DNA of 64,000 nucleotides, from IMG/VR virus record IMGVR_UViG_3300024272_000051, positions 1 to 64,000 of that record; one strand, given 5' to 3'. This document shows positions 9,029 through 52,225 of this stretch, piece by piece. The position numbers and the translations under genes were made by a program. A model generated the notes under the pieces. The model was given only the letters and a program-made list of their open reading frames with translations, searched no databases and was not told where the DNA came from. The stretch is from a virus. Taxonomy: Duplodnaviria; Caudoviricetes. Each line of letters begins with the position of its first letter. The stretch's first letter is position 1.

Positions 9029-9391
9029 ATGATTAGACTTACACTAACTGATGAACAAGCAAAGATTGTTTCTATTGCAACCGAGTTTTATTCTCGTGTT
9101 AGAATTGGGCAGTTTGATGAAATTATTTGGCATACTCTTGATCTATCAATCAACACAGAAGAATTCTGTCAACGTAGAGATAAGGCAGAGCGCCTACTCT
9201 TCGCTGCAAGAAAGCAACTGTACCCAGAACTGAATGGTATCGGACATTCTTTTGGTATGGGGAAATTTAAAGATGCAGATATGAGCTTTGATGTTTATCA
9301 AGTAATCCGACACGCAATGGGAGATGATAGAACTCCCTTTAGTTATTATGAATTGCCAAAGTGTGAAGTAGTGAGAGGTGCGGATGAATAA
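9029..9391 (+). CDS. Hypothetical protein
   Basis: Tiled ORF. Confidence 0.6.
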   Translation: MIRLTLTDEQAKIVSIATEFYSRVRIGQFDEIIWHTLDLSINTEEFCQRRDKAERLLFAARKQLYPELNGIGHSFGMGKFKDADMSFDVYQVIRHAMGDDRTPFSYYELPKCEVVRGADE

Positions 9392-9836
9392 TCTGGAAGC
9401 AGCTAATGTTCTCGTAGCTATGAAGTCCGACATGGTTGATGCAACTTGCAATATGACTAATAGAAATCCGATGCAAGGGGTGTTGACACAGAGAGTTGAA
9501 GCGATAAATGTTGCTATTTCTGAGTTGGATAAACATAGAAATGTCAAAAAAATTGATTTCTGCAGATGTCCATGGTGCGAAAGCGACGCTAAAGTTCATA
9601 CATTTATATCTAAAATTGTTGAGCTCCCCACCCCAAAGAGACTCTTTGGAAAATGGTCACTGCTAAAAATGCGATATAAAGACATTCCGATACAATACTG
9701 CGTCGAATGTTCTGCGTTTTGCGAAGGATTTGCAAAATTCTCAGATGTCTGTTGTGGGAACACAATAGAAGAAGCAACGATTGCTTGGAATGAGATGGTA
9801 AATAGGATTGGATGGGAGATCAAAATGGATAACTAA
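9384..9836 (+). CDS. Hypothetical protein with Lar-like CPWC Zn motif
   Basis: CPWC...CVEC...EATIAWN. Confidence 0.55.
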   Translation: MNNLEAANVLVAMKSDMVDATCNMTNRNPMQGVLTQRVEAINVAISELDKHRNVKKIDFCRCPWCESDAKVHTFISKIVELPTPKRLFGKWSLLKMRYKDIPIQYCVECSAFCEGFAKFSDVCCGNTIEEATIAWNEMVNRIGWEIKMDN

Positions 9837-9845
9837 AAATCGCAT

Positions 9846-9922
9846 GGGTCTATAGCACAATCGGTTAGTGCATCCGGCTCATAACCGGACGGTTCTGGGT
9901 TCGAGTCCCAGTGGACCCACCA
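9846..9922 (+). tRNA. tRNA(CAT), probably Ile2
   Basis: TCCGG-CTCATAA-CCGGA; body resembles Firmicutes Ile2; no initiator features. Confidence 0.85.
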
Positions 9923-9926
9923 ATAT

Positions 9927-10018
9927 GCCCCTGTAGCTCAACGGTAGAGCAGCGGGTTTATACCCCGTAGCGCCAGATAAGCGGCAGGTTTAGGGTTCGA
10001 ATCCCTACAGGGGCACCA
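9927..10018 (+). tRNA. tRNA-Ile(TAT) with long variable arm
   Basis: GCCCCTG/CAGGGGC acceptor, GCGGG-TTTATAC-CCCGT, ~21-nt variable region, ACCA. Confidence 0.85.
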
Positions 10019-10038
10019 GACTTTTGGAGGTAATTATT

Positions 10039-10242
10039 ATGAAGAGTTATGAAGAACCTGTAGTAAAAGCTGGTTGTAAATACACTTTCGAAATACCTGG
10101 TGTTGGCAGTTGCTGCAATGCATACAGCGAAAGTAAGCACCCAAGAGGATATCATTGGGCTCATTACCCTAATTGTTGTAACAAAGATTGTCCTCTGGTA
10201 CATCCGGAACTGCTTGAAGGTGCAATCCTGGAGGAGAAGTGA
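10039..10242 (+). CDS. Small Cys-rich hypothetical protein
   Basis: GGAGG SD. Confidence 0.55.
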   Translation: MKSYEEPVVKAGCKYTFEIPGVGSCCNAYSESKHPRGYHWAHYPNCCNKDCPLVHPELLEGAILEEK

Positions 10243-13601: not shown

Positions 13602-13632
13602 TACAGATATATAAAGAATTGGAGTGAAATGT

Positions 13633-14220
13633 TTGACCTGTATTATAGGATTTGCGGATCGAAAAAATGGAGTTTCATGGATTGGCGGAGACAGCCTTGG
13701 TAGCAATGGATACACAAAAGCTGTCGAGATGCCATCTAAAGTATTTAGAAACAACACGTTCGACAACGTTCTGATTGGCGGAACGACGACGTTCAGACAT
13801 TTGGATTTGCTAAAGTACTCAGACAGTTTATTCGATGAGGTTGATTTACTTAAAAAGACGGAAATTGACCATAGATTTATGGTTACTAAATTTATTCCCA
13901 GAGTAATAGCTTTGTTCAAAGATGGTGTGGTACATGAGGGCGAAAAAGACCGTGGCGGAAATTTTATTGTGGCAACCCCCGGCAAGGTATTTGAAGTACA
14001 GGGCGACTATTCAGTACTTGAGCCGGAGCTTGGAATTTGCGCAGTAGGGTGTGGCGAAAAAGTTGCAATGGGAAGTCTTCTCACTACAAAGGATTTGGAC
14101 ATGCCGCCGGAGGAAAAGATCCTCAAAGCATTAGAGGCAGCTGAACAATATTGTTGCGGTGTCCAGCGTCCATTCCGTATCCTGTGTACAGATGGCAGAG
14201 ACGAGATTATTATCAAATAG
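13633..14220 (+). CDS. HslV/proteasome-beta-like Ntn hydrolase
   Basis: TTG start gives (M)TCIIG..GGDS with Thr1 nucleophile, KVF, AVGCG. Confidence 0.75.
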   Translation: MTCIIGFADRKNGVSWIGGDSLGSNGYTKAVEMPSKVFRNNTFDNVLIGGTTTFRHLDLLKYSDSLFDEVDLLKKTEIDHRFMVTKFIPRVIALFKDGVVHEGEKDRGGNFIVATPGKVFEVQGDYSVLEPELGICAVGCGEKVAMGSLLTTKDLDMPPEEKILKALEAAEQYCCGVQRPFRILCTDGRDEIIIK

Positions 14221-15401: not shown

Positions 15402-15947
15402 ATGAAAATCCTTGTTGTTGTTGATATGCAAAACGACTTTGTGGATGGAGCATTGGGCACAGCGGATGCCGTTGCAATCGTTCCCAAGGTTGTCGAGAAG
15501 ATCAATACTTTTGATGGAATTTTTGCAGTAACGCATGACACACATCATTCAAACTATATCGATACGCAGGAGGGGGAGAACCTGCCTGTGATTCATTGTA
15601 TCGAAGACACCGAGGGATGGATGTTGGCGGCGCCTGTATTCGAAGCGTTGGATAAAAGAGTCCAGGGCGGAGTAAGATCCGAGGTTTTTCTTAAACCTAC
15701 ATTCGGCTCTGTTGAATTGGCTGACTGGCTGACTCAGATCGATAGAAAGGAAAAAGTTGACGAGGTAGTCCTTGTTGGTCTGTGTACCGATATCTGTGTT
15801 ATCTCCAACGCTATGCTTATCAAGGCGTTCATGCCCGAAGTGAAGATCACTGTTGATGCATCTTGCTGTGCCGGTGTTACTCCGGAAAGCCATAAGAATG
15901 CATTAGAGGCAATGAAAATGTGCCAAATCAATATCGAAGGAGCATAA
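15402..15947 (+). CDS. pncA: Nicotinamidase (cysteine hydrolase)
   Basis: VVDMQNDF, THDTH, HC, K, GLCTDICV catalytic and metal motifs. Confidence 0.9.
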   Translation: MKILVVVDMQNDFVDGALGTADAVAIVPKVVEKINTFDGIFAVTHDTHHSNYIDTQEGENLPVIHCIEDTEGWMLAAPVFEALDKRVQGGVRSEVFLKPTFGSVELADWLTQIDRKEKVDEVVLVGLCTDICVISNAMLIKAFMPEVKITVDASCCAGVTPESHKNALEAMKMCQINIEGA

Positions 15948-15950
15948 GGT

Positions 15951-16739
15951 ATGATTACAGTCAATGGTTGTATTGTCAATTGTACGCAGTTCCCTGATGG
16001 CACTTCGTCTATGAGATGCGAAAACTATGGAAGTGGTAAAAACATTATTGAATGGAAGTTTGACGGGGATCACGAATGTATCATTATTTGGCATTTGGTT
16101 CATCATATTCGTGCCAATGATCCCGAAACTTGTATCTTTTTATTCTTGCCCTACATTCCAAATGCAAGAATGGACAGAGTCAAGGCGTGCGACGAGGTGT
16201 TTACACTGAAGTGGTTTGCAGAGTTTATTAATGCCCTCAACTTCACAAAAGTCTTTGTCGAAGACCCTCATTCTAATGTAAGCGCTGCACTAATCGACAG
16301 AGTTGACATTAAGGGTGTTGGGGCGAATGTAAGAGCTACCATTAATCTCATTGGGGCGAACAAGGACGAAGTCTTGTTCTGCTACCCAGATGAAGGGGCA
16401 ACAAAGAAGTATTCTGACCAGATCAAGGGAGAATATGTGTTTGGCATTAAACACCGAGACTGGCGCACCGGCAATATCCAGAAGTTTGAATTGGTTGGAG
16501 CAGATAAGGTTCGTGGAAGAACTGTTCTTATCGTCGATGACATTTGTTCTCGTGGCGGTACATTTATGCATACTGCTAAGGCTTTGAAAGAAGCGGGCGC
16601 AGGAAAAGTGTTCCTGTACATTACTCACTGTGAGAATACAATCTTCAACGGAGAGCTGCTTAGCAGTGACCTTATCGAGCATATTTATACTACAGACAGC
16701 ATTTATCGTGGTTGCCACAAAAAGATAACTGTGCTGTAA
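15951..16739 (+). CDS. Prs-like pyrophosphokinase (Adps-like)
   Basis: FPDG, PYIPNARMDR, DPHS, PDEGA, IVDDICSRGGTF; short 262 aa; adjacent to NAMPT-like gene. Confidence 0.85.
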   Translation: MITVNGCIVNCTQFPDGTSSMRCENYGSGKNIIEWKFDGDHECIIIWHLVHHIRANDPETCIFLFLPYIPNARMDRVKACDEVFTLKWFAEFINALNFTKVFVEDPHSNVSAALIDRVDIKGVGANVRATINLIGANKDEVLFCYPDEGATKKYSDQIKGEYVFGIKHRDWRTGNIQKFELVGADKVRGRTVLIVDDICSRGGTFMHTAKALKEAGAGKVFLYITHCENTIFNGELLSSDLIEHIYTTDSIYRGCHKKITVL

Positions 16740-16755
16740 TTGGAGGAATAAAAGA

Positions 16756-18243
16756 ATGATAGATTATAACCCATTGTTGTGTCTTGATTTTTACAAGACG
16801 GCACACGCTGATCAGTACCCAAAAGGTTTGACCAAAATGGTTTCTTACTACACCCCTCGTATGTCTCGTCTGCAGGACACTCAGAAGATCACAATGTTTG
16901 GGCTTCAGGCATTCATTGGAGAATATTTAATTAAGGCTTTTGGTCGATGGTTTTTCGATAAAAGTTTGGAAAATGTTCTTAATGATTATAAGCGCGTTCT
17001 CAGATCCACTATTGGTACAGACGGTGTCGGCGAACAACGCATCGAAGAGCTCTATAATCTTGGGTATTTACCCCTGAAGATTAGAGCACTTCCCGAGGGG
17101 ACAAGGTCTGACATCAAGGTGCCACAGATTGAAATTTCAAATACACATCCAGACTTTGTGTGGCTGGTAAATTCCATCGAAACAATGCTTTCTTGTACAA
17201 TGTGGCATACCCAGGTGTCTGCAGAAGTCGGATACCGCTACCGCCAGATCGTCAATGAGTTTGCAGAGAGAACGTGCGACGACAATGTCTCTCGTGCAAG
17301 ACTTCTTGGCGATTTTTCTATGCGAGGACAAGAGAGCGTTGAGAGCGCAACTAAGAGTTCTGCTGCATTCTGCCTCAGCTTTTTGAATACAGCAACTGTT
17401 CCGGCAATTCTTTGGTTGGAAAGAAATTATGATTGCGACTGTGAAAAAGAGCCCGTCGCATTTGGCGCACTTTCTACTGAACACAGCGTAATGTGTTCCA
17501 ACTTTGCGATTGATGGCGATGAAATCACACATGTCCGTCGGCTCCTTACCGAGATTTATCCGCACCAGAGTTTTTCCATGGTCAGCGACAGTTATGATTA
17601 CTGGAATCTGGTAGACAATATCTTGCCACAGCTTAAGGAAGAAGTTTTGGCACATGATGGCTTTATCTCTATCCGTGGTGACAGCGGCGATCCTGTGGAG
17701 GTTGTTACACAGACGGTGTTTAAGCTGTGGGACACTTTCGGCGGAACAGTAAATGCCAAGGGATTTAAGGTTCTCAATCCACATGTAAAGGCGATTTATG
17801 GCGACAGCATCACGCCTCAGCGTTGCCGTCGTATCTATGAGATTCTGGAAGAAAACGGTTTTGCAATCAATAATGTTTCCTTGGGAGTAGGCTCGTTCTC
17901 CATGCAGTGTCTGGAGACTATTTGGAAGGATGATGTAGTCTACAATCCGTTCACCAGAGATACGTTTGGTATTGCGGTTAAGGCAACATATGCGGAAGAC
18001 GAGTGCGGCAATCCTATTATGATTTTCAAAAACCCAAAGACCGATTCTGGTCGTTTCAAAAAGTCTCAGCGAGGTTGTTGTCGTGTGTATAAGACCGGAG
18101 ATGGTTATGCATATGAAGACGGTCTTACTTGGGCGGAGGCACAGGAAAACAATGAACTGGGTACAGTTTTTGAAAATGGTGTCTTTACCAAACGGTTTAC
18201 GCTGAGTGAGGTCCGCCAGAATTTGCACGAGGGGAATTTCTGA
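16756..18243 (+). CDS. NAMPT/Namat-like phosphoribosyltransferase with Ala at the Asp219-equivalent position
   Basis: DFYKTAH, DFSMRG, NTATVPA, TEHS, VSDSYD, IRGDSGDP, IYGDSIT, GVGS, RDT, KKS motifs. Confidence 0.9.
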   Translation: MIDYNPLLCLDFYKTAHADQYPKGLTKMVSYYTPRMSRLQDTQKITMFGLQAFIGEYLIKAFGRWFFDKSLENVLNDYKRVLRSTIGTDGVGEQRIEELYNLGYLPLKIRALPEGTRSDIKVPQIEISNTHPDFVWLVNSIETMLSCTMWHTQVSAEVGYRYRQIVNEFAERTCDDNVSRARLLGDFSMRGQESVESATKSSAAFCLSFLNTATVPAILWLERNYDCDCEKEPVAFGALSTEHSVMCSNFAIDGDEITHVRRLLTEIYPHQSFSMVSDSYDYWNLVDNILPQLKEEVLAHDGFISIRGDSGDPVEVVTQTVFKLWDTFGGTVNAKGFKVLNPHVKAIYGDSITPQRCRRIYEILEENGFAINNVSLGVGSFSMQCLETIWKDDVVYNPFTRDTFGIAVKATYAEDECGNPIMIFKNPKTDSGRFKKSQRGCCRVYKTGDGYAYEDGLTWAEAQENNELGTVFENGVFTKRFTLSEVRQNLHEGNF

Positions 18244-18668
18244 TGGACTATTTTTTAGATACTCAAAATGCATATAAGCGTTTAATTGATGAGTTTGCCG
18301 CACATGGTAAGCTCATCATTGCTTATGACTTTGATGATACTGTCTTTGATTATCATAATCGCGGAGAAAGCTATGAAGATGTTATTAACTTGCTAAGAAG
18401 GTTGAGACCGTATGCAAGCTTTATCGTATTTACATCGTGTTCCAAAGAAAAAGAGGCCGGGATCGCCTCCTATCTTGAGGAAAATGATATTCCATACGAC
18501 AGTATTAACGAGGACATTATCACCCAGTTTGGTGGCAGGAAAGTGTACTACAACCTCTTTCTTGACGACCGAGCTGGTTTGAGAGAGGTTTATGATTTGC
18601 TCATTCGATTTTTGAATGAAGTCGAATCTCAAACCGATTTGAAAGAGAGGGTTGTACATGCTCGCTGA
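18243..18668 (+). CDS. HAD-family phosphatase
   Basis: AYDFDDT motif I, FTS, K..LDDRAG; overlaps both neighbours. Confidence 0.75.
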   Translation: MDYFLDTQNAYKRLIDEFAAHGKLIIAYDFDDTVFDYHNRGESYEDVINLLRRLRPYASFIVFTSCSKEKEAGIASYLEENDIPYDSINEDIITQFGGRKVYYNLFLDDRAGLREVYDLLIRFLNEVESQTDLKERVVHAR

Positions 18669-19413
18669 TCCAAAGAGAACAAAGGACGAAATCGTCCAGT
18701 GGATTCGTAACTATTTTGAAGAAAACGGGAAAGGCTGCTATGCGGTCGTCGGGATTTCCGGCGGTAAAGATAGCAGTATCGTAGCCGCTCTGTGTGTTGA
18801 AGCGCTCGGTGCAGATAGGGTTTTTGGAGTCCTGATGCCAAATGGTGAGCAGCGCGACATTACTGACTCCGCTCGTCTGGTGGAGGCTCTTGGCATTAAC
18901 GATGTTATAATCAACATCTACGGAGCTTACCGTGATATGATTGATAGAATTGATCGCGCTTTGCCAGATGGAATCAGTGAGCAGAGCAAGGTCAACCTTC
19001 CACCGCGTCTTAGGATGGCTGCATTGTATGCGGTGGCACAATCTCTACCGGGTGGTGGACGCGTTGCTAACACATGCAACAGATCTGAGGATTTCGTTGG
19101 CTACTCTACGAAGTTTGGCGACAGCGTTGGTGACTTTAGTCCGCTGGCCAACCTGATGGTACACGAGGTTATCCAAATTGGTCACGAGCTGCCAATCCCA
19201 AGGGATCTTGTTGATAAGACTCCATCTGATGGACTGTGCGGGAAAACAGATGAAGATAATCTTGGCGTAAGTTATCAAGAAATTGACCGCTATATCGAAA
19301 GTGGTGTTTGCGCCATTGAGAAAAATGAACGCATTATAGAGAACCTACATCAAAAAAATCTACATAAACTTAGACCGATGCCCGCCTTTGGAGATGTCGC
19401 ATGGGAGAAGTAA
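18658..19413 (+). CDS. nadE: NH3-dependent NAD synthetase
   Basis: GISGGKDS, N..PRLRM, TCNRSE..GYSTKFGD, PSDGL, DE; no glutaminase domain. Confidence 0.92.
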   Translation: MLADPKRTKDEIVQWIRNYFEENGKGCYAVVGISGGKDSSIVAALCVEALGADRVFGVLMPNGEQRDITDSARLVEALGINDVIINIYGAYRDMIDRIDRALPDGISEQSKVNLPPRLRMAALYAVAQSLPGGGRVANTCNRSEDFVGYSTKFGDSVGDFSPLANLMVHEVIQIGHELPIPRDLVDKTPSDGLCGKTDEDNLGVSYQEIDRYIESGVCAIEKNERIIENLHQKNLHKLRPMPAFGDVAWEK

Positions 19414-19494
19414 TTTCTGTCGGGTTTATCATGGCCGCCAGCATAGCGGTATTTATCGCCTACAATTCTGGCGGATATGGTGGAGGTGGAGCAT

Positions 19495-20760
19495 TTGGAT
19501 AAAGCTATCTTGGCTCTGATCGAATTGCAACAAACCACAGGAATGAAAAGAAAGCTTGCTATTGTTGAAGAAAATCGCGACAATGAGCATTTCACAAGAT
19601 TGCTGTATTATGCTTGTAATCCAAGGCTTTCGTATAAAGTGTCGGAGGCAACTCTGAGACGACTGATACCTGCGGCATGGCATACCCACCAGTATAGAGA
19701 TATTTTTGATGTGTGCAATGAGCTGTCAAAAAGAAAAGCGCTTGACGACGAAACAACGTTTAGAGTTTGCTCGTTTTTGCGAACTCAGAATGCTGGTACG
19801 CAAGAACTATATATCAAACTGTTGGCTAAAACGCTTCGGCTCGGCATCACCGCTAAAAGTATCAATAAAGTTATCCCTGGGCTGATCCCGGAATGGGAAG
19901 TCCAGCAAGCTTATCCAATCGAGAAGTATCCACTAAAAGATGGATGTTGGTTTTCTGTTTCGCAAAAGCTAAACGGTGTCCGCGCCACCTTTTATCGTGG
20001 GGAGCTGATCGGCAGAAGCGGTATTGCGTTCGATGGTCTTGAACACATTACAGATGAGCTTAGCCACTTCCCACATCTGGTTTTTGATGGAGAGCTGACC
20101 TTGGCCAACAAGGGCACTCTTTCTGACAATGAGGCTTTTCGCTTAACCACGGGAATTGTGAACTCTGAAAATGATGATAAAACGGTGATTTGCTTCACAA
20201 TTTTTGACATGCTTCCTGCGGACGAGTTTGATACAGGTGAAAGCGTAGCTACATACAAAGAGCGCCGACAACAGCTTGATGATTTACAAGAGTGGTTTAC
20301 TGGAAATGACCATATACACATTCTTAATTCCTTATATAGCGGTGACGACCAAAGCATTGTTCCGAAATTGTTGGAGAAAATGGTGTCTGAAGATAAAGAG
20401 GGATTAATGATAAATCTAGATGTCCCCTACCAGTGCAAAAGACATCGCGGTATTCTTAAAGTCAAACAATTCTACACAATGGATCTACCGATATTAAGAT
20501 GTGAGTCTGGGAGTGGAAAGCTTGCCAATACACTTGGGGCAATTATAGTTGACTACAAGGGAAATGAGGTTGGAGTTGGGTCTGGCTTCACAGACGAGCA
20601 GAGGTCTTGGATTTGGACACACCAAGATGAATTGGTTGGTAGCCTTGTGGAAATTAAATATAAAGAACAGTCTTATGACAAATCGACGGGGTGCTGTAGT
20701 TTACAGTTCCCTGTTTTTGTGTCGCTAAGAACGGATAAACAGGATGTTAGTTTTGGGTAA
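19495..20760 (+). CDS. ATP-dependent DNA ligase
   Basis: QKLNGVR, FDGEL, FD, EGLM, LKVK, VGSGF, LQFPVF motifs. Confidence 0.9.
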   Translation: MDKAILALIELQQTTGMKRKLAIVEENRDNEHFTRLLYYACNPRLSYKVSEATLRRLIPAAWHTHQYRDIFDVCNELSKRKALDDETTFRVCSFLRTQNAGTQELYIKLLAKTLRLGITAKSINKVIPGLIPEWEVQQAYPIEKYPLKDGCWFSVSQKLNGVRATFYRGELIGRSGIAFDGLEHITDELSHFPHLVFDGELTLANKGTLSDNEAFRLTTGIVNSENDDKTVICFTIFDMLPADEFDTGESVATYKERRQQLDDLQEWFTGNDHIHILNSLYSGDDQSIVPKLLEKMVSEDKEGLMINLDVPYQCKRHRGILKVKQFYTMDLPILRCESGSGKLANTLGAIIVDYKGNEVGVGSGFTDEQRSWIWTHQDELVGSLVEIKYKEQSYDKSTGCCSLQFPVFVSLRTDKQDVSFG

Positions 20761-33291: not shown

Positions 33292-34224
33292 ATGTACAAC
33301 GAAGAGCGCAAGATGAGGTTCCTTGAAGAGACGAGATCATCCGTCGGATTTGGTAAGTCTGTATTTAAGACTATAGCCCCTTATGAACACGAGGCAAAGA
33401 TGGATCTGTGTGAGCTACCGATTGAGATTTTACAGCCAGTAGCAAACTCCAACTTTGGTTCACGAACGAGAACATCAGATTCAACCATCGCATTTCTTCG
33501 CGCATACACAACTTGGTGTAGGGAAGAAGGATTTCCAGTTGGGGATGGTGTATATCTGTTAAAAACAGAAATGGACGAAAAAGTTCGCCGTCTAATGATT
33601 GCGTCGCCTAAGCATCTTGAAGCCACACTAAACAAGGCGTTTGCACCAGTCCAGTCTGAAACAGTGGACTGTCTTTATCGTTGTTATTTATGGATGGCTT
33701 TTGCGGGGTTGAAGGATGTAGATGCACTGGATGTCAAAGTTTGCGAAATTGACTTTGATACGATGTTAATTGAACACAACGGAAGGTCTTATGAACTGTA
33801 TCGTGAAGCGGTTCCCACATTTAAAATGGCATGTAGTGCTACGCAATTCCGCTATATCAACCCAAATTATGGATCAGACAAGCAGGGTGGATATCGAAAT
33901 AGATATCCGGGAGAACTCCTCATGCGAGGTATTCGTTCGGAGCAAATTAAAATTGCAACTGTAAGAGCAAGCATTGGCAAGGCATTTAAAGAATGTGGTG
34001 TGGAAACTACCTATAACAAAATCCGACTGTCTGGATTGTTCTACAAGGCATATGAGATGGAACGATGTGGCGAAGAAGTTAATTTTGATGGTATTGTTGA
34101 AGAAAGACTTTCTCAGATGGATCACAAATACCACAAGAACTACACAAGAAATAAGGAAGCAAATGGAATTCGACGCGACTTGTTTGATGACTACGGTTGT
34201 TGGAAAGCAGCATTTGCAAGATAA
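33292..34224 (+). CDS. MrpR/YopR-like integrase-fold lysogeny repressor
   Basis: MYNEERKMRFLEE N-terminus; degenerate tyrosine-recombinase boxes (AGLKDVD, NKIRLSG). Confidence 0.7.
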   Translation: MYNEERKMRFLEETRSSVGFGKSVFKTIAPYEHEAKMDLCELPIEILQPVANSNFGSRTRTSDSTIAFLRAYTTWCREEGFPVGDGVYLLKTEMDEKVRRLMIASPKHLEATLNKAFAPVQSETVDCLYRCYLWMAFAGLKDVDALDVKVCEIDFDTMLIEHNGRSYELYREAVPTFKMACSATQFRYINPNYGSDKQGGYRNRYPGELLMRGIRSEQIKIATVRASIGKAFKECGVETTYNKIRLSGLFYKAYEMERCGEEVNFDGIVEERLSQMDHKYHKNYTRNKEANGIRRDLFDDYGCWKAAFAR

Positions 34225-50900: not shown

Positions 50901-51092
50901 ATGTTAAATGGTTTAGAAGTATATACAGTTAAGGAAATTCAGGAATTATTTAAGTGTGGAAAAAGACAAGCCTATGAACTTATGCGTTCTCCGTCATTTC
51001 CCTCAATCAAAGTTGGAGGAAGATACATAGTCGAAAAAAGTGCCCTGCAGCGCTGGTTTTCGACATATGAAGGATCATATTTCATCATTTGA
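50901..51092 (+). CDS. xis: Excisionase-like HTH protein
   Basis: YTVKEIQELF..AYELM..FPSIKVGGRY; immediately upstream of integrase. Confidence 0.8.
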   Translation: MLNGLEVYTVKEIQELFKCGKRQAYELMRSPSFPSIKVGGRYIVEKSALQRWFSTYEGSYFII

Positions 51093-51106
51093 GGAGGCGT
51101 ATGTTT

Positions 51107-52225
51107 ATGGCAAAGTCTGGAAGTATTTCAAAAAGAGCAGATGGTCGGTGGACAGTAAAATACAAGAACAGGCAAACGACCTGCAAAACAGAAGCTGAAG
51201 CAAAACGGAAGCTTAAAGAAATGAAAGCGGTAAGCATAATACAAGCTGTCCCGGTGGCAAAATTGACTGCTGAAGATGCTATAACGAAGTGGCTAAGTGT
51301 ACAACAAGTTAGGCTGAAACCGAGTAGTTTTGACAGGCTTGAGCAGGTTTGGGAAAACCAAGTAAAGCTGTATTTTGCAAAACAGCAGTTCAGTACAATC
51401 AAAAAAGGCGACATAGATGATATGCTGATTGATCTATGTAATAAGGGATACTCCTATTCGACGGTCAAGAAAGCATTTGAGCTTTTAAGCGGGTGTTTCA
51501 GATATTATCTGGAACGAGAAACAATAACCAGTGATCCAACCACCTTTGTAAAAGTGCCATCTGTTAACAAGAAACCAAAAGGCGAAATCATATTCTATGA
51601 AGAAGACGAGCTACGCAAAATTTATGATGCGTCAACCAGAAAGTATTCCAATGGGGTGCCTGTGTTCAGACAGGGGTGGGCAATTGTTCTGCTCGGCAAT
51701 ACAGGACTACGCCTTGGTGAGCTTTGTGGGTTGACATGGGACAATGTTGACTTTAAGAAAAAACAAATTATAATCAAAGGAAATAGGGTATTGGTAAAGA
51801 ACCGAGATGAGGGTGCAACAACCAGAAACAAGCTTGTTGACCAAAAGGTTACAAAGACACAGAATGGTATGCGCACAGTTCCTCTCAATGAGATGGCCGT
51901 AGAAGCACTCATAGAACTACAAAAGATAAAGAGTAGTAACTATGTGCTTGCATCGAGACACGGCAATCCGACATACCCTAAGGTGTTAGACACGACATTC
52001 CGCAGAGTGTTAAAAGCTGCGGGCATACCAGAAGATAGGATTTATGGTGTGCACTCTCTCAGACATTCGTTTGCGACTACGCTAATACGAAATGGAGTGT
52101 CGCCCAAGACAGTCTCCAAACTATTAGGGCATGGAGACATCAACATTACATTACAGACGTATGTTCATGCACTGCAAAATGACTACTCAGACGCAGTTGC
52201 GATGTTGGACAGAGCTATAAAATAG
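51107..52225 (+). CDS. int: Tyrosine integrase
   Basis: GSISKRADGRW arm domain; TGLRLGE, TKT, HSLRH, LGH, TY. Confidence 0.95.
   Translation: MAKSGSISKRADGRWTVKYKNRQTTCKTEAEAKRKLKEMKAVSIIQAVPVAKLTAEDAITKWLSVQQVRLKPSSFDRLEQVWENQVKLYFAKQQFSTIKKGDIDDMLIDLCNKGYSYSTVKKAFELLSGCFRYYLERETITSDPTTFVKVPSVNKKPKGEIIFYEEDELRKIYDASTRKYSNGVPVFRQGWAIVLLGNTGLRLGELCGLTWDNVDFKKKQIIIKGNRVLVKNRDEGATTRNKLVDQKVTKTQNGMRTVPLNEMAVEALIELQKIKSSNYVLASRHGNPTYPKVLDTTFRRVLKAAGIPEDRIYGVHSLRHSFATTLIRNGVSPKTVSKLLGHGDINITLQTYVHALQNDYSDAVAMLDRAIK

What the first reader, a model, noticed from the sequence alone, without database searches (positions are those of the whole stretch)
15402..19413. Probable deamidated NAD-reconstitution pathway: PncA, Adps-like, Namat-like, HAD, NadE
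Seen: five tightly linked genes with no NadD/NMNAT adenylyltransferase in the operon or the window. Known: phage NARP1 uses a Prs-like enzyme (Adps, ADP-ribose to ADPR-PP) and a NAMPT-like enzyme (Namat, ADPR-PP plus nicotinamide to NAD+) against NAD-depleting defences such as Thoeris, DSR and SIR2-HerA. PncA would destroy the NARP1 substrate and NadE would be unnecessary unless the route runs through nicotinate. Inference: nicotinamide is deamidated to nicotinate plus NH3; ADPR-PP plus nicotinate gives NaAD directly; the NH3-dependent NadE re-amidates it to NAD+. This would be a route distinct from NARP1 and NARP2 that can also use environmental nicotinate. The alternative is an ordinary Preiss-Handler salvage relying on host NadD.
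Basis: partly seen in the sequence, partly recalled or inferred. Interest (0 to 1): 0.86.

Follow-up and report, generated by a model that had tools for sequence, protein, structure and literature searches.

The report
Nicotinate-routed phage NAD+ rebuilding operon
This gut-phage operon looks like a re-wired version of the known phage NAD+-rebuilding pathway NARP1. Its key enzyme has lost its nicotinamide-recognising residues, so NAD+ is probably rebuilt from ADP-ribose through nicotinic acid and deamido-NAD, a route and an enzyme reaction not yet described.

Summary
The five genes are real, intact and tightly packed at the stated coordinates: PncA nicotinamidase, Adps-like, Namat-like, a small HAD phosphatase and NH3-type NadE.

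- **Closest relatives.** The Prs-like protein is 40% identical to the proven SPbetaL1 Adps. The transferase is far closer to Namat (E 7e-117) than to Nampt.
- **Active-site switch.** The adenine clamp and the ribose/phosphate residues are kept. The residues around the nicotinamide amide are changed: Namat D215 to Ala213, A242 to Ser240, G213 to Asn211, H187 to Gly185.
- **Co-occurrence.** In 146 phage loci, all 108 with Ala or Ser at this position carry NadE and/or PncA. None of the 38 with Asp or Glu does.
- **Phylogeny.** The Ala/Ser enzymes form one clade (support 0.98) inside Namat, sister to the clade that holds ICP1's Namat.
- **Missing step.** No NMN/NaMN adenylyltransferase was found in this record or in five related records.

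Best reading: Nam to nicotinate; ADPR to ADPR-PP; nicotinate plus ADPR-PP to NaAD; NaAD to NAD+. No biochemistry exists, and the PRPP/NaMN/host-NadD route is not excluded.

The HAD gene sits where relatives carry the Macro phosphatase Adpp. This scan noted the same cassette earlier on other DNA. No paper I could search describes it.

The parts
15402..15947 (+). PncA-type nicotinamidase (181 aa, P0003): nicotinamide to nicotinate plus NH3
   Evidence: PF00857 E 1.8e-21. The best PDB match is P. horikoshii pyrazinamidase/nicotinamidase 1ilw. Catalytic D8/K98/C132 and metal ligands D46/H48/H65 are invariant in 87 distinct homologues from related loci.
15951..16739 (+). Adps-like PRPS-fold pyrophosphokinase (262 aa, P0002): inferred ADPR plus ATP to ADPR-PP plus AMP
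   Evidence: 40% identity and E 3e-53 to the biochemically characterised SPbetaL1 Adps, against E 1.4e-13 to B. subtilis PRPP synthetase. It falls in the same PHROG (phrog_619) as SPbetaL1 Adps and below every curated Prs cut-off. The Adps active-site residues F18, R87, H121, D161, K185, D212 and D213 (ICP1 numbering) are kept.
16756..18243 (+). Namat-derived transferase (495 aa, P0001) with a switched pyridine pocket: inferred nicotinate plus ADPR-PP to NaAD plus PPi
   Evidence: Best PDB match is SPbetaL1 Namat 9w5x, E 7e-117, against 1e-43 to 1e-50 for Nampts. It lies inside the Ala/Ser clade (support 0.98), which is nested in Namat.
17383..17403 (+). Pocket segment LNTATVP. Ala213 (codon 17392-17394) replaces Namat Asp215 / human NAMPT Asp219. 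Asn211 replaces Gly213.
   Evidence: Alignment to 9w5x; translation. This is the most group-discriminating column of the family, with no overlap between the groups.
17464..17487 (+). Segment GALSTEHS. Ser240 (17473-17475) replaces the Namat pocket residue Ala242. The catalytic His243 is kept.
   Evidence: Ala242 is listed as a nicotinamide-pocket residue in the Namat-NAM crystal structure (PMC12774641).
17890..17961 (+). Selectivity-clamp helix region, GSF...YNPFTRD. Namat F392, T398, R399 and D400 are kept, but a 13-residue insertion splits the published GSX-Phi-X-Phi-X-Phi-TRD motif.
   Evidence: Early-branching Ala/Ser members have the uninterrupted motif.
18243..18668 (+). Capless HAD phosphatase (141 aa, P0004); inferred accessory phosphatase that feeds ADPR into the pathway
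   Evidence: D29, D31, T33, K100, D108 and D109 are invariant and T64 nearly invariant (90% or more) in 44 homologues. AF2 pLDDT 93.5; best fold match 2obb BT_0820. Homologues lie between Adps and Asp-type Namat in L160 and L161. It is never found together with the Macro Adpp-like gene in the loci examined (0 of 8 against 82 of 138, p = 0.001).
18652..19413 (+). Single-domain NH3-dependent NAD synthetase NadE (253 aa, P0005; an ATG at 18658 is an alternative start): inferred NaAD plus ATP plus NH3 to NAD+
   Evidence: PF02540 E 2.5e-51 and TIGR00552 176 bits. The SGGxDS P-loop is conserved in 94 homologues. Best PDB matches are P. horikoshii NadE 2e18 and 3fiu.

Best explanation
The operon is a deamidated (nicotinate-routed) derivative of the phage NAD+ reconstitution pathway NARP1. 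After a defence NADase splits NAD+ into ADP-ribose and nicotinamide, four steps are proposed.

1. PncA converts nicotinamide to nicotinate plus NH3.
2. The Adps homologue pyrophosphorylates ADP-ribose to ADPR-PP.
3. The Namat-derived transferase couples nicotinate to ADPR-PP and gives deamido-NAD (NaAD) directly. Its amide-recognising pocket has changed (Asp to Ala/Ser, Ala to Ser, Gly to Asn/Lys, His to Gly/Ser/Cys), while its adenine clamp is kept.
4. The NH3-dependent NadE amidates NaAD to NAD+.

No adenylyltransferase is needed. The net reaction would be ADPR + Nam + 2 ATP to NAD+, one ATP more than NARP1. The small HAD phosphatase is an accessory enzyme. It probably liberates ADPR from a phosphorylated ADPR derivative, as the Macro phosphatase Adpp does in NARP1-AP.

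What is shown: gene identities, the residue switch, the co-occurrence, the phylogeny, and the absence of an adenylyltransferase. What is inferred: every substrate and product, and the biological rationale. That rationale could be hosts that deamidate nicotinamide quickly, trapping of the charged nicotinate in the cell, or an extra ATP-driven irreversible step.
For: **Gene identities.**

**Transferase.**
- P0001 is much closer to crystallised Namat than to Nampt.
- The three most group-discriminating columns of about 490 are D215 to A/S, H187 to S/G/C and A242 to S. S239 (to G) and G213 (to K/N) also fall among the seven lowest-overlap columns.
- R40, F189, R192, R306, D308, G360, D361, G390, S391, F/Y392, T398, R399 and D400 are conserved in both groups.
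- Asp215 and Ala242 line the nicotinamide pocket in the Namat-NAM structure, and D215A cuts NAD+ formation about 8-fold (PMC12774641).
- In human NAMPT, D219S switches substrate affinity and D219A abolishes activity (PMC4919578 Table 2; PMC7096376).

**Co-occurrence.**
- 108 of 108 Ala/Ser loci carry NadE and/or PncA, against 0 of 38 Asp/Glu loci.
- Two apparent exceptions have NadE about 8 kb downstream, beyond the edge of the fetched locus. The other incomplete loci (L011, L019, L039, L042) have the transferase at the start of the fetched stretch; L141 is a 9-kb fragment that lacks only PncA.
- Six further divergent Ala/Ser lineages all sit next to NAD_synthase.
- Five phage genomes at least 93% complete with Asp-type Namat have no NadE and no isochorismatase gene.

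**Phylogeny.** All 52 Ala/Ser tips form one clade (support 0.98), one parsimony change from Asp. The clade is sister to the one holding ICP1 Namat, with SPbetaL1 Namat more basal. ADPR-PP use is therefore the bracketed ancestral state.

**Link to ADPR.** 77 of 108 Ala/Ser loci carry a Poa1p-like Macro phosphatase.

**Missing step.** PF01467 has no match in this record or in five other Ala/Ser records, three of them 100% complete.
Against: - Nothing has been assayed. ADPR-PP plus nicotinate to NaAD is an undescribed reaction.
- Namat retains PRPP activity in vitro (PMC12774641). The variant could therefore make NaMN and rely on host NadD.
- The Adps residues I could check are also conserved in canonical PRPS, so they do not prove ADPR specificity.
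- In the window's lineage the published clamp motif is interrupted by a 13-residue insertion.
- NadE's second-best PDB match is chain 3fiu; from memory this is the Francisella NMN synthetase (the table names it only an NH3-dependent NAD synthetase). NaAD against NaMN preference could not be read from sequence.
- The D to A/S change happened once, so the 108-versus-0 association is phylogenetically a single event, although it is maintained down to about 40% identity.
- The earliest-branching Ala-type member (P0254, L150) lies next to a NadM-like adenylyltransferase on a bacterial-looking contig.
Confidence: 0.67

Rival explanations
1. A Preiss-Handler-type salvage that depends on the host. The Prs-like enzyme makes PRPP, and the Ala-type transferase acts as a nicotinate phosphoribosyltransferase and gives NaMN. 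Host NadD then makes NaAD and phage NadE finishes to NAD+. ADP-ribose is not reused.
For: - Namat keeps PRPP-dependent activity in vitro (PMC12774641).
- The pocket switch argues for nicotinate but says nothing about the ribosyl donor.
- The basal Ala-type gene P0254 sits beside a NadM-like adenylyltransferase.
- Phage Preiss-Handler clusters are known (PMC11662467).
Against: - The Prs-like protein is an Adps family member (40% identical to proven Adps, below the Prs cut-offs).
- The adenine-clamp residues are conserved across the Ala/Ser clade.
- The clade is bracketed by systems with experimental support for ADPR-PP use.
- 77 of 108 such operons include an ADPR-1''-phosphate-phosphatase-like Macro gene, which makes sense only if ADPR is the substrate.
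- Phages with classical Preiss-Handler clusters encode their own NadD. Six records of this type, three of them 100% complete, encode none.
Confidence: 0.17
2. Canonical NARP1 plus an independent side route. The transferase still uses nicotinamide and ADPR-PP to give NAD+. PncA and NadE only boost the host's own Preiss-Handler flux in parallel.
For: All five genes are individually ordinary NAD-salvage enzymes. Some gut-phage contigs carry NadE alone, without Namat (L003, L004, L006).
Against: - This does not explain why every NadE/PncA-linked enzyme has lost Asp215 and Ala242, and why no Asp-type enzyme has these neighbours.
- D215A in Namat and D219A in NAMPT cripple nicotinamide use.
- A co-expressed nicotinamidase would compete for the transferase's own substrate.
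Confidence: 0.08
3. The switched pocket accepts some other pyridine or base, or the cassette serves general NAD+ supply for phage metabolism rather than counter-defence.
For: The Ala/Ser/Gly substitutions enlarge the pocket. No defence system or infection phenotype has been linked to these uncultivated phages.
Against: The constant pairing with a nicotinamidase (which makes nicotinate) and with NadE (which amidates a nicotinate nucleotide) points specifically to nicotinate. Its nearest relatives are proven counter-defence systems.
Confidence: 0.08

Closest known systems
NARP1 (Adps + Namat; Osterman et al. preprint 10.1101/2024.02.11.579819; Namat structure PMC12774641; Adps structure PMC13586617)
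   Same: It has homologous Adps (40% identical to SPbetaL1 Adps) and Namat (E 7e-117 to 9w5x) as adjacent genes in the same order. The catalytic core and the adenine-clamp residues are kept. It is nested phylogenetically within Namat.
   Different: The nicotinamide-amide residues are replaced: D215 to Ala, A242 to Ser, G213 to Asn, H187 to Gly. A nicotinamidase and an NAD synthetase are always attached. The inferred product of the transferase is NaAD, not NAD+, and the route costs one more ATP. The Osterman preprint does not mention PncA, NadE or nicotinate.
NARP1-AP (Adps-Adpp-Namat of Vibrio phage Gary; preprint 10.64898/2026.01.28.702374)
   Same: An accessory phosphatase gene is embedded in the operon. 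Most relatives of this cassette carry a Poa1p-like Macro gene in that slot.
   Different: In this window the slot holds a BT0820-type capless HAD phosphatase. The whole record contains no Macro domain. The substrate of the HAD enzyme is unknown.
Classical Preiss-Handler salvage (PncA-PncB-NadD-NadE), including the pncB-nadD-nadE clusters of 'NAD-jumbo phages' (PMC11662467)
   Same: It begins with PncA and ends with NadE, and it runs through nicotinate and NaAD.
   Different: There is no PncB-family enzyme and no NadD. The two middle steps are replaced by an Adps/Namat-type pair that is inferred to reuse ADP-ribose.
Human NAMPT D219S specificity mutant (Khan et al. 2006, as cited in PMC4919578 and PMC7096376)
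   Same: It carries the same position and, in 18 of the 150 family representatives, the very same substitution (Asp to Ser), which lets NAMPT use nicotinic acid.
   Different: This is a natural, fixed, clade-wide change accompanied by further pocket changes, in an ADPR-PP-type enzyme.
NARP2 (Nampt + NMNAT) and NARP3 (PnuC + NadR; PMC13464706)
   Same: These are phage NAD+ restoration pathways directed against NADase defences.
   Different: Both need an adenylyltransferase, and NARP3 also needs a transporter. Neither gene was found here (no PnuC search was run).

Membership tests
NARP1 | Adps: a PRPS-fold enzyme of the Adps family next to the transferase | tested here: met
   40% identity and E 3e-53 to SPbetaL1 Adps. 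Same phrog_619. K185, D212, D213, F18 and R87 are conserved.
NARP1 | Namat with adenine selectivity clamp (R40, F/Y392, Y396, T398-R399-D400; motif GSX-Phi-X-Phi-X-Phi-TRD) | tested here: inconclusive
   R38, F381, T400, R401 and D402 are present, but a 13-residue insertion splits the motif. Basal members of the same clade have the intact motif.
NARP1 | Nicotinamide recognition by Asp215 (with Ala242) in Namat | tested here: not met
   Ala213 and Ser240 in the window protein. Ala or Ser in all 108 loci of this kind.
NARP1 | Two enzymes suffice to make NAD+ from ADPR and nicotinamide | not testable with these tools
   This needs enzyme assays. The obligatory linkage to PncA and NadE argues against it.
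NARP1-AP | Macro-domain ADPR-1''-phosphate phosphatase (Adpp) in the operon | tested here: not met
   PF01661 has no match in the 104-kb record. A HAD phosphatase occupies the slot. The feature is met in 77 of 108 related loci.
Preiss-Handler salvage | PncA nicotinamidase with catalytic triad and metal site | tested here: met
   D8/K98/C132 and D46/H48/H65 are conserved.
Preiss-Handler salvage | PncB-family nicotinate phosphoribosyltransferase | tested here: not met
   The only PF04095 gene in the record is the Nampt/Namat-type P0001.
Preiss-Handler salvage | NadD/NadM NaMN adenylyltransferase | tested here: not met
   PF01467 has no match in this record or in five related records; 14 of 14 control genomes are positive. 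The host could supply it.
Preiss-Handler salvage | NadE NAD synthetase | tested here: met
   TIGR00552, 176 bits against a cut-off of 63.65; single domain, so NH3 type. Preference for NaAD over NaMN was not testable.
NARP2 / NARP3 | NMN adenylyltransferase (NMNAT or NadR) | tested here: not met
   No PF01467 match in the record.
HAD phosphatase superfamily (BT0820-type, capless) | DxDxT nucleophile motif, Thr/Ser motif II, Lys motif III, DD motif IV, Rossmannoid fold | tested here: met
   D29, D31, T33, K100, D108 and D109 are invariant and T64 nearly invariant (90% or more). Fold match to 2obb: probability 1.0, TM 0.57-0.65.

The most novel reading that the evidence does not exclude
A large, monophyletic branch of the Namat family catalyses a reaction not yet described: nicotinate + ADPR-PP to NaAD. 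This branch makes up about a third of the 150 family representatives nearest the query, mostly from uncultivated gut phages. With PncA, Adps and NadE it forms a fourth, deamidated NAD+ reconstitution pathway that needs no adenylyltransferase. In addition, a capless HAD phosphatase has replaced the Macro phosphatase Adpp as a non-homologous supplier of ADPR.
Probability: 0.55. Interest if true: 0.85.

Novelty: new variant of a known kind. Interest (0 to 1): 0.78.

Why it matters
NAD+ depletion is one of the commonest bacterial anti-phage strategies. The known phage answers (NARP1, NARP1-AP, NARP2, NARP3) all work through amidated intermediates.

A nicotinate-routed version would add three things:
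- a new enzyme reaction, direct NaAD synthesis from ADPR-PP;
- a natural example of the Asp-to-Ser/Ala specificity switch known from engineered human NAMPT;
- a clear sequence rule, G-[TS]-D against [KN]-[TS]-[AS] plus A242S, for annotating thousands of 'nicotinamide phosphoribosyltransferase' genes in phage metagenomes.

It would also suggest that host nicotinamidase activity, or loss of nicotinamide from the cell, shapes which counter-defence works. That is directly testable in laboratory strains.

Tried and rejected
- **Megablast against phage records.** The 4-kb region found nothing. Protein-level searches were needed.
- **First IMG/VR scan.** It failed on the remote machine and was repeated.
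- **Promoter/terminator scan.** Nothing above the shuffled expectation, so operon boundaries are not defined by it.
- **Rosetta-stone fusions.** I looked among long family members (P0157, P0173, P0190 and others). The extra length is HNH or LAGLIDADG homing-endonuclease/intein-like insertions, not fused pathway enzymes.
- **Separating ADPR from ribose-5-P specificity.** I mapped the ICP1 Adps ligand residues. They are conserved in both groups, but most are also shared with PRPS, so this does not discriminate.
- **NadE substrate determinants.** I tried to read them from the Francisella NMN synthetase paper, which is not held. I could only establish that short archaeal-type NadE is a true NaAD enzyme (PMC3376133).
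- **NARP3 as an explanation.** Rejected: it is PnuC + NadR.
- **Apparent exceptions L040/L041 (no NadE within 8 kb).** Resolved: NadE lies just beyond the locus edge, after an inserted RNA-repair module.
- **Steps not run.** I did not model the transferase with ligand; the tools give no coordinates or docking.

Full report
**Observation**

The five + strand ORFs are at exactly the coordinates given: 15402-15947, 15951-16739, 16756-18243, 18243-18668 and 18652-19413. They are separated by 3 and 16 nt, or overlap by 1 and 17 nt.

Profile searches name them as follows:
- an isochorismatase-family protein;
- a divergent ribose-phosphate pyrophosphokinase (phrog_619, E 1.4e-69), which falls below every curated Prs cut-off in NCBIfam;
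- a Nampt/Namat-family transferase (phrog_448, E 1.3e-154);
- a small protein with a DxDxT motif;
- a single-domain NAD synthetase (TIGR00552, 176 bits).

The window is part of a 104,404-bp IMG/VR virus record, 88% complete. That record has no PF01467 adenylyltransferase, only one PF04095 gene and no Macro domain. The cassette lies in a replication and nucleotide-metabolism block rich in tRNA genes. An ATP-dependent DNA ligase lies directly downstream.

**The individual enzymes**

- **PncA.** Its best solved relative is the P. horikoshii nicotinamidase. It keeps the catalytic triad (D8, K98, C132) and the metal ligands (D46, H48, H65), which are invariant in 87 homologues from related loci.
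- **Prs-like protein.** It is 40% identical (E 3e-53) to SPbetaL1 Adps, the enzyme shown to make ADPR-PP, against E 1.4e-13 to B. subtilis PRPP synthetase.
- **Transferase.** It matches crystallised SPbetaL1 Namat (9w5x) at E 7e-117, and bacterial and human Nampt only at 1e-50 to 1e-43.
- **NadE.** It has the SGGxDS loop. Its best solved relatives are short NH3-type enzymes.

**The key result: a specificity switch**

I aligned the transferase to 9w5x, whose numbering I checked against the residues named in PMC12774641. It keeps D13, Y15, R40, F189, S190, R192, R306, D308, G360, D361, G390, S391, F392, T398, R399 and D400. However, it has Ala213 where Namat has Asp215.

Asp215 hydrogen-bonds the nicotinamide, and D215A lowers NAD+ synthesis about 8-fold. 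The equivalent human NAMPT residue Asp219 defines nicotinamide specificity. D219S switches substrate affinity and D219A inactivates the enzyme (Khan et al. 2006, as tabulated in PMC4919578 and cited in PMC7096376).

I then compared 93 Asp-type and 51 Ala/Ser-type representatives from a search of 1.84 billion cluster representatives.
- The three most discriminating of about 490 columns are D215 to A/S (no overlap), H187 to S/G/C and A242 to S.
- S239 (to G) and G213 (to K/N) are also among the seven lowest-overlap columns.
- Ala242 is a listed nicotinamide-pocket residue.
- By motif offsets, and from my own knowledge of human numbering, H187, G213, D215 and A242 correspond to human H191, G217, D219 and A244. 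These are the positions whose mutation alters substrate choice or blocks nicotinamide-site inhibitors.
- The stacking, ribose, phosphate and adenine-clamp residues are conserved in both groups.

The change is therefore concentrated at the carboxamide end of the pyridine pocket.

**Comparative genomics**

Three scans of IMG/VR were run, with the window protein, the Phass-1 homologue and SPbetaL1 Namat. Together with phage-database loci they gave 146 loci with a scorable transferase.

| Residue at the D215 position | Loci | With NadE and/or PncA in the locus |
|---|---|---|
| Ala or Ser | 108 | 108 (101 have NadE + PncA + Adps) |
| Asp or Glu | 38 | 0 (36 have Adps) |

Naive Fisher p is 6e-36.

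- Most incomplete cases have the transferase at the start of the fetched stretch (L011, L019, L039, L042). L141 is a 9-kb fragment that lacks only PncA.
- L040 and L041 have NadE about 8 kb downstream, behind an inserted RNA-repair module.
- Six further, more divergent Ala/Ser lineages all lie next to NAD_synthase. Where the contig allows, they also have isochorismatase and a Prs-like gene (P0224, P0220, P0206, P0157, P0153, P0136).
- Two out-of-sample operons found through the HAD gene (L160, L161) lack PncA and NadE and, as predicted, have G-T-D, His187 and Ala242.
- At whole-genome level, five Asp-type phage genomes at least 93% complete have neither NadE nor an isochorismatase gene.
- Five other Ala/Ser-type records, three of them 100% complete, have no PF01467 adenylyltransferase.
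- The published gut phage Phass-1 (OQ749652, code 15) has the same five genes in the same order as the window. Its paper does not discuss them as a pathway.

**Phylogeny**

The tree was rooted with three phage Nampts: KVP40-like V09, phiEap-3, and CcrRogue, which has an adjacent cytidyltransferase. All three carry G-x-D.
- The 52 Ala/Ser tips form one clade with SH-like support 0.98. It is nested within Asp-type Namat, one parsimony change away.
- Its sister clade contains ICP1 Namat, and SPbetaL1 Namat branches more basally.
- SPbetaL1 Adps/Namat and ICP1 Adps are biochemically characterised (PMC12774641, PMC13586617).
- ADPR-PP use is therefore the bracketed ancestral state of the Ala/Ser clade.

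There are two caveats. This is a FastTree topology, and because the switch occurred once, the association is a single evolutionary event that has been maintained down to about 40% identity.

**ADPR-PP or PRPP?**

Evidence favouring ADPR-PP:
- Adps family membership;
- conserved clamp residues, with an uninterrupted GS-aromatic-x-x-Q-x-x-TRD motif in early-branching Ala/Ser members;
- a Poa1p-like Macro phosphatase gene in 77 of 108 Ala/Ser operons. This is the class shown to convert ADPR-1''-P to ADPR for NARP1 (preprint 10.64898/2026.01.28.702374), and it has no role in a PRPP route;
- the consistent absence of an adenylyltransferase, whereas phages with classical Preiss-Handler clusters encode NadD (PMC11662467).

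Evidence against:
- Namat retains PRPP activity in vitro.
- The Adps residues I could map are largely shared with PRPS.
- The window lineage has a 13-residue insertion in the clamp helix.
- The basal member P0254 lies beside a NadM-like gene on a bacterial-looking contig that ends right after the transferase.

**The HAD gene**

P0004 folds confidently (pLDDT 93.5) as a capless HAD. Its best match is BT_0820 (2obb), and all four HAD motifs are conserved, motif II Thr64 nearly invariant (90% or more) and the rest invariant.

Homologues 55-57% identical sit between Adps and Asp-type Namat in three-gene operons. That is the slot Adpp occupies in NARP1-AP. HAD and Macro genes never occur together in the loci examined (0 of 8 against 82 of 138, p = 0.001).

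I infer that it is an analogous accessory phosphatase supplying ADPR. Its substrate is unknown.

**NadE**

It is a single-domain enzyme, hence NH3-dependent. PncA releases one NH3 for each nicotinamide, which matches NadE's need.

A short archaeal NadE is a strict NaAD enzyme (PMC3376133). The second-best PDB relative is chain 3fiu, which I recall as the Francisella NMN synthetase; the table itself names it only an NH3-dependent NAD synthetase. Substrate preference is therefore unresolved, although an NMN product would again need an adenylyltransferase that the phage lacks.

**Mechanism and novelty**

The best-supported reading has four steps:
1. Nam to nicotinate (PncA).
2. ADPR to ADPR-PP (Adps).
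3. Nicotinate + ADPR-PP to NaAD (switched Namat).
4. NaAD to NAD+ (NadE).

The HAD enzyme would act as an accessory.

Full-text searches for NARP1/Namat together with PncA, NadE, NaAD or nicotinate found no description of this. NARP3 is PnuC/NadR. The jumbo-phage study reports only classical pathways.

I file it as a new variant of NARP1, not as a member in the strict sense, because the defining nicotinamide-recognition feature is tested and not met.

The scan's notebook shows that the same cassette was noted on other DNA, including one follow-up that reached the same conclusion. I found the Asp-to-Ala change before reading those notes and tested it independently here.

Noticed in passing
P0125-P0274; P0173, P0190: Many Namat/Nampt-family representatives are 550-1100 aa and match the query in two stretches that break near residue 318, just after the IRGDSGDP motif. 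Two of the seven long forms scanned carry HNH/AP2 (P0173) or LAGLIDADG (P0190) matches. This suggests intein or homing-endonuclease insertions at a conserved active-site position.
   Followed up: partly
L150:3236-6418: The earliest-branching Ala-type transferase (P0254, 'GGSAT') lies on a bacterial-looking contig next to PadR, FtsW and GTPase genes. It sits directly after a NadM-like NMN adenylyltransferase and an Adps-like gene (41% identical to SPbetaL1 Adps). It may be a hybrid or intermediate arrangement. The contig ends after the gene.
   Followed up: partly
L040:9496-17448 (and L041): An RNA-repair module is inserted between the Namat-type gene and NadE. It contains an RlaP-like nucleotidyltransferase, a CCA-adding enzyme, a kinase-phosphoesterase-RNA ligase fusion and Thg1. 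Thg1 also lies near the cassette in L155.
   Followed up: partly
L155:4602-5765 and 9042-10112: Two IS605 OrfB/TnpB (Cas12f-like) genes flank or interrupt the cassette, one of them between the transferase and NadE.
   Followed up: no
window 13624-14220: An HslV-family peptidase-like gene (phrog_1040) lies just upstream of the cassette. The same family is annotated a few genes downstream of the Nampt gene in Caulobacter phage CcrRogue (L159:6151-6663).
   Followed up: no
window 613-24760: Fourteen tRNA genes are interspersed with the early/metabolic genes around the cassette. None is a suppressor tRNA, although the relative Phass-1 uses code 15 and carries tRNA-Sup-CTA.
   Followed up: no
window 33292-34224 and 51089-52225; about 52000: There are two integrase-like genes (phrog_5830 weak; phrog_1 strong, E 3e-69). 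GC skew changes sign near 52 kb, where gene orientation flips. One related record (G011) is classed as a provirus, so the phage may be temperate.
   Followed up: no
L003, L004, L006: Human-gut phage contigs carry a NadE homologue (36-48% identical) with no Namat, Adps or PncA gene on the contig (10.2 to 17.8 kb). NadE also occurs alone in phages.
   Followed up: no
window 19477-20760; L155:10867-12201: An ATP-dependent DNA ligase follows NadE directly, both in the window and in the distant relative L155.
   Followed up: no
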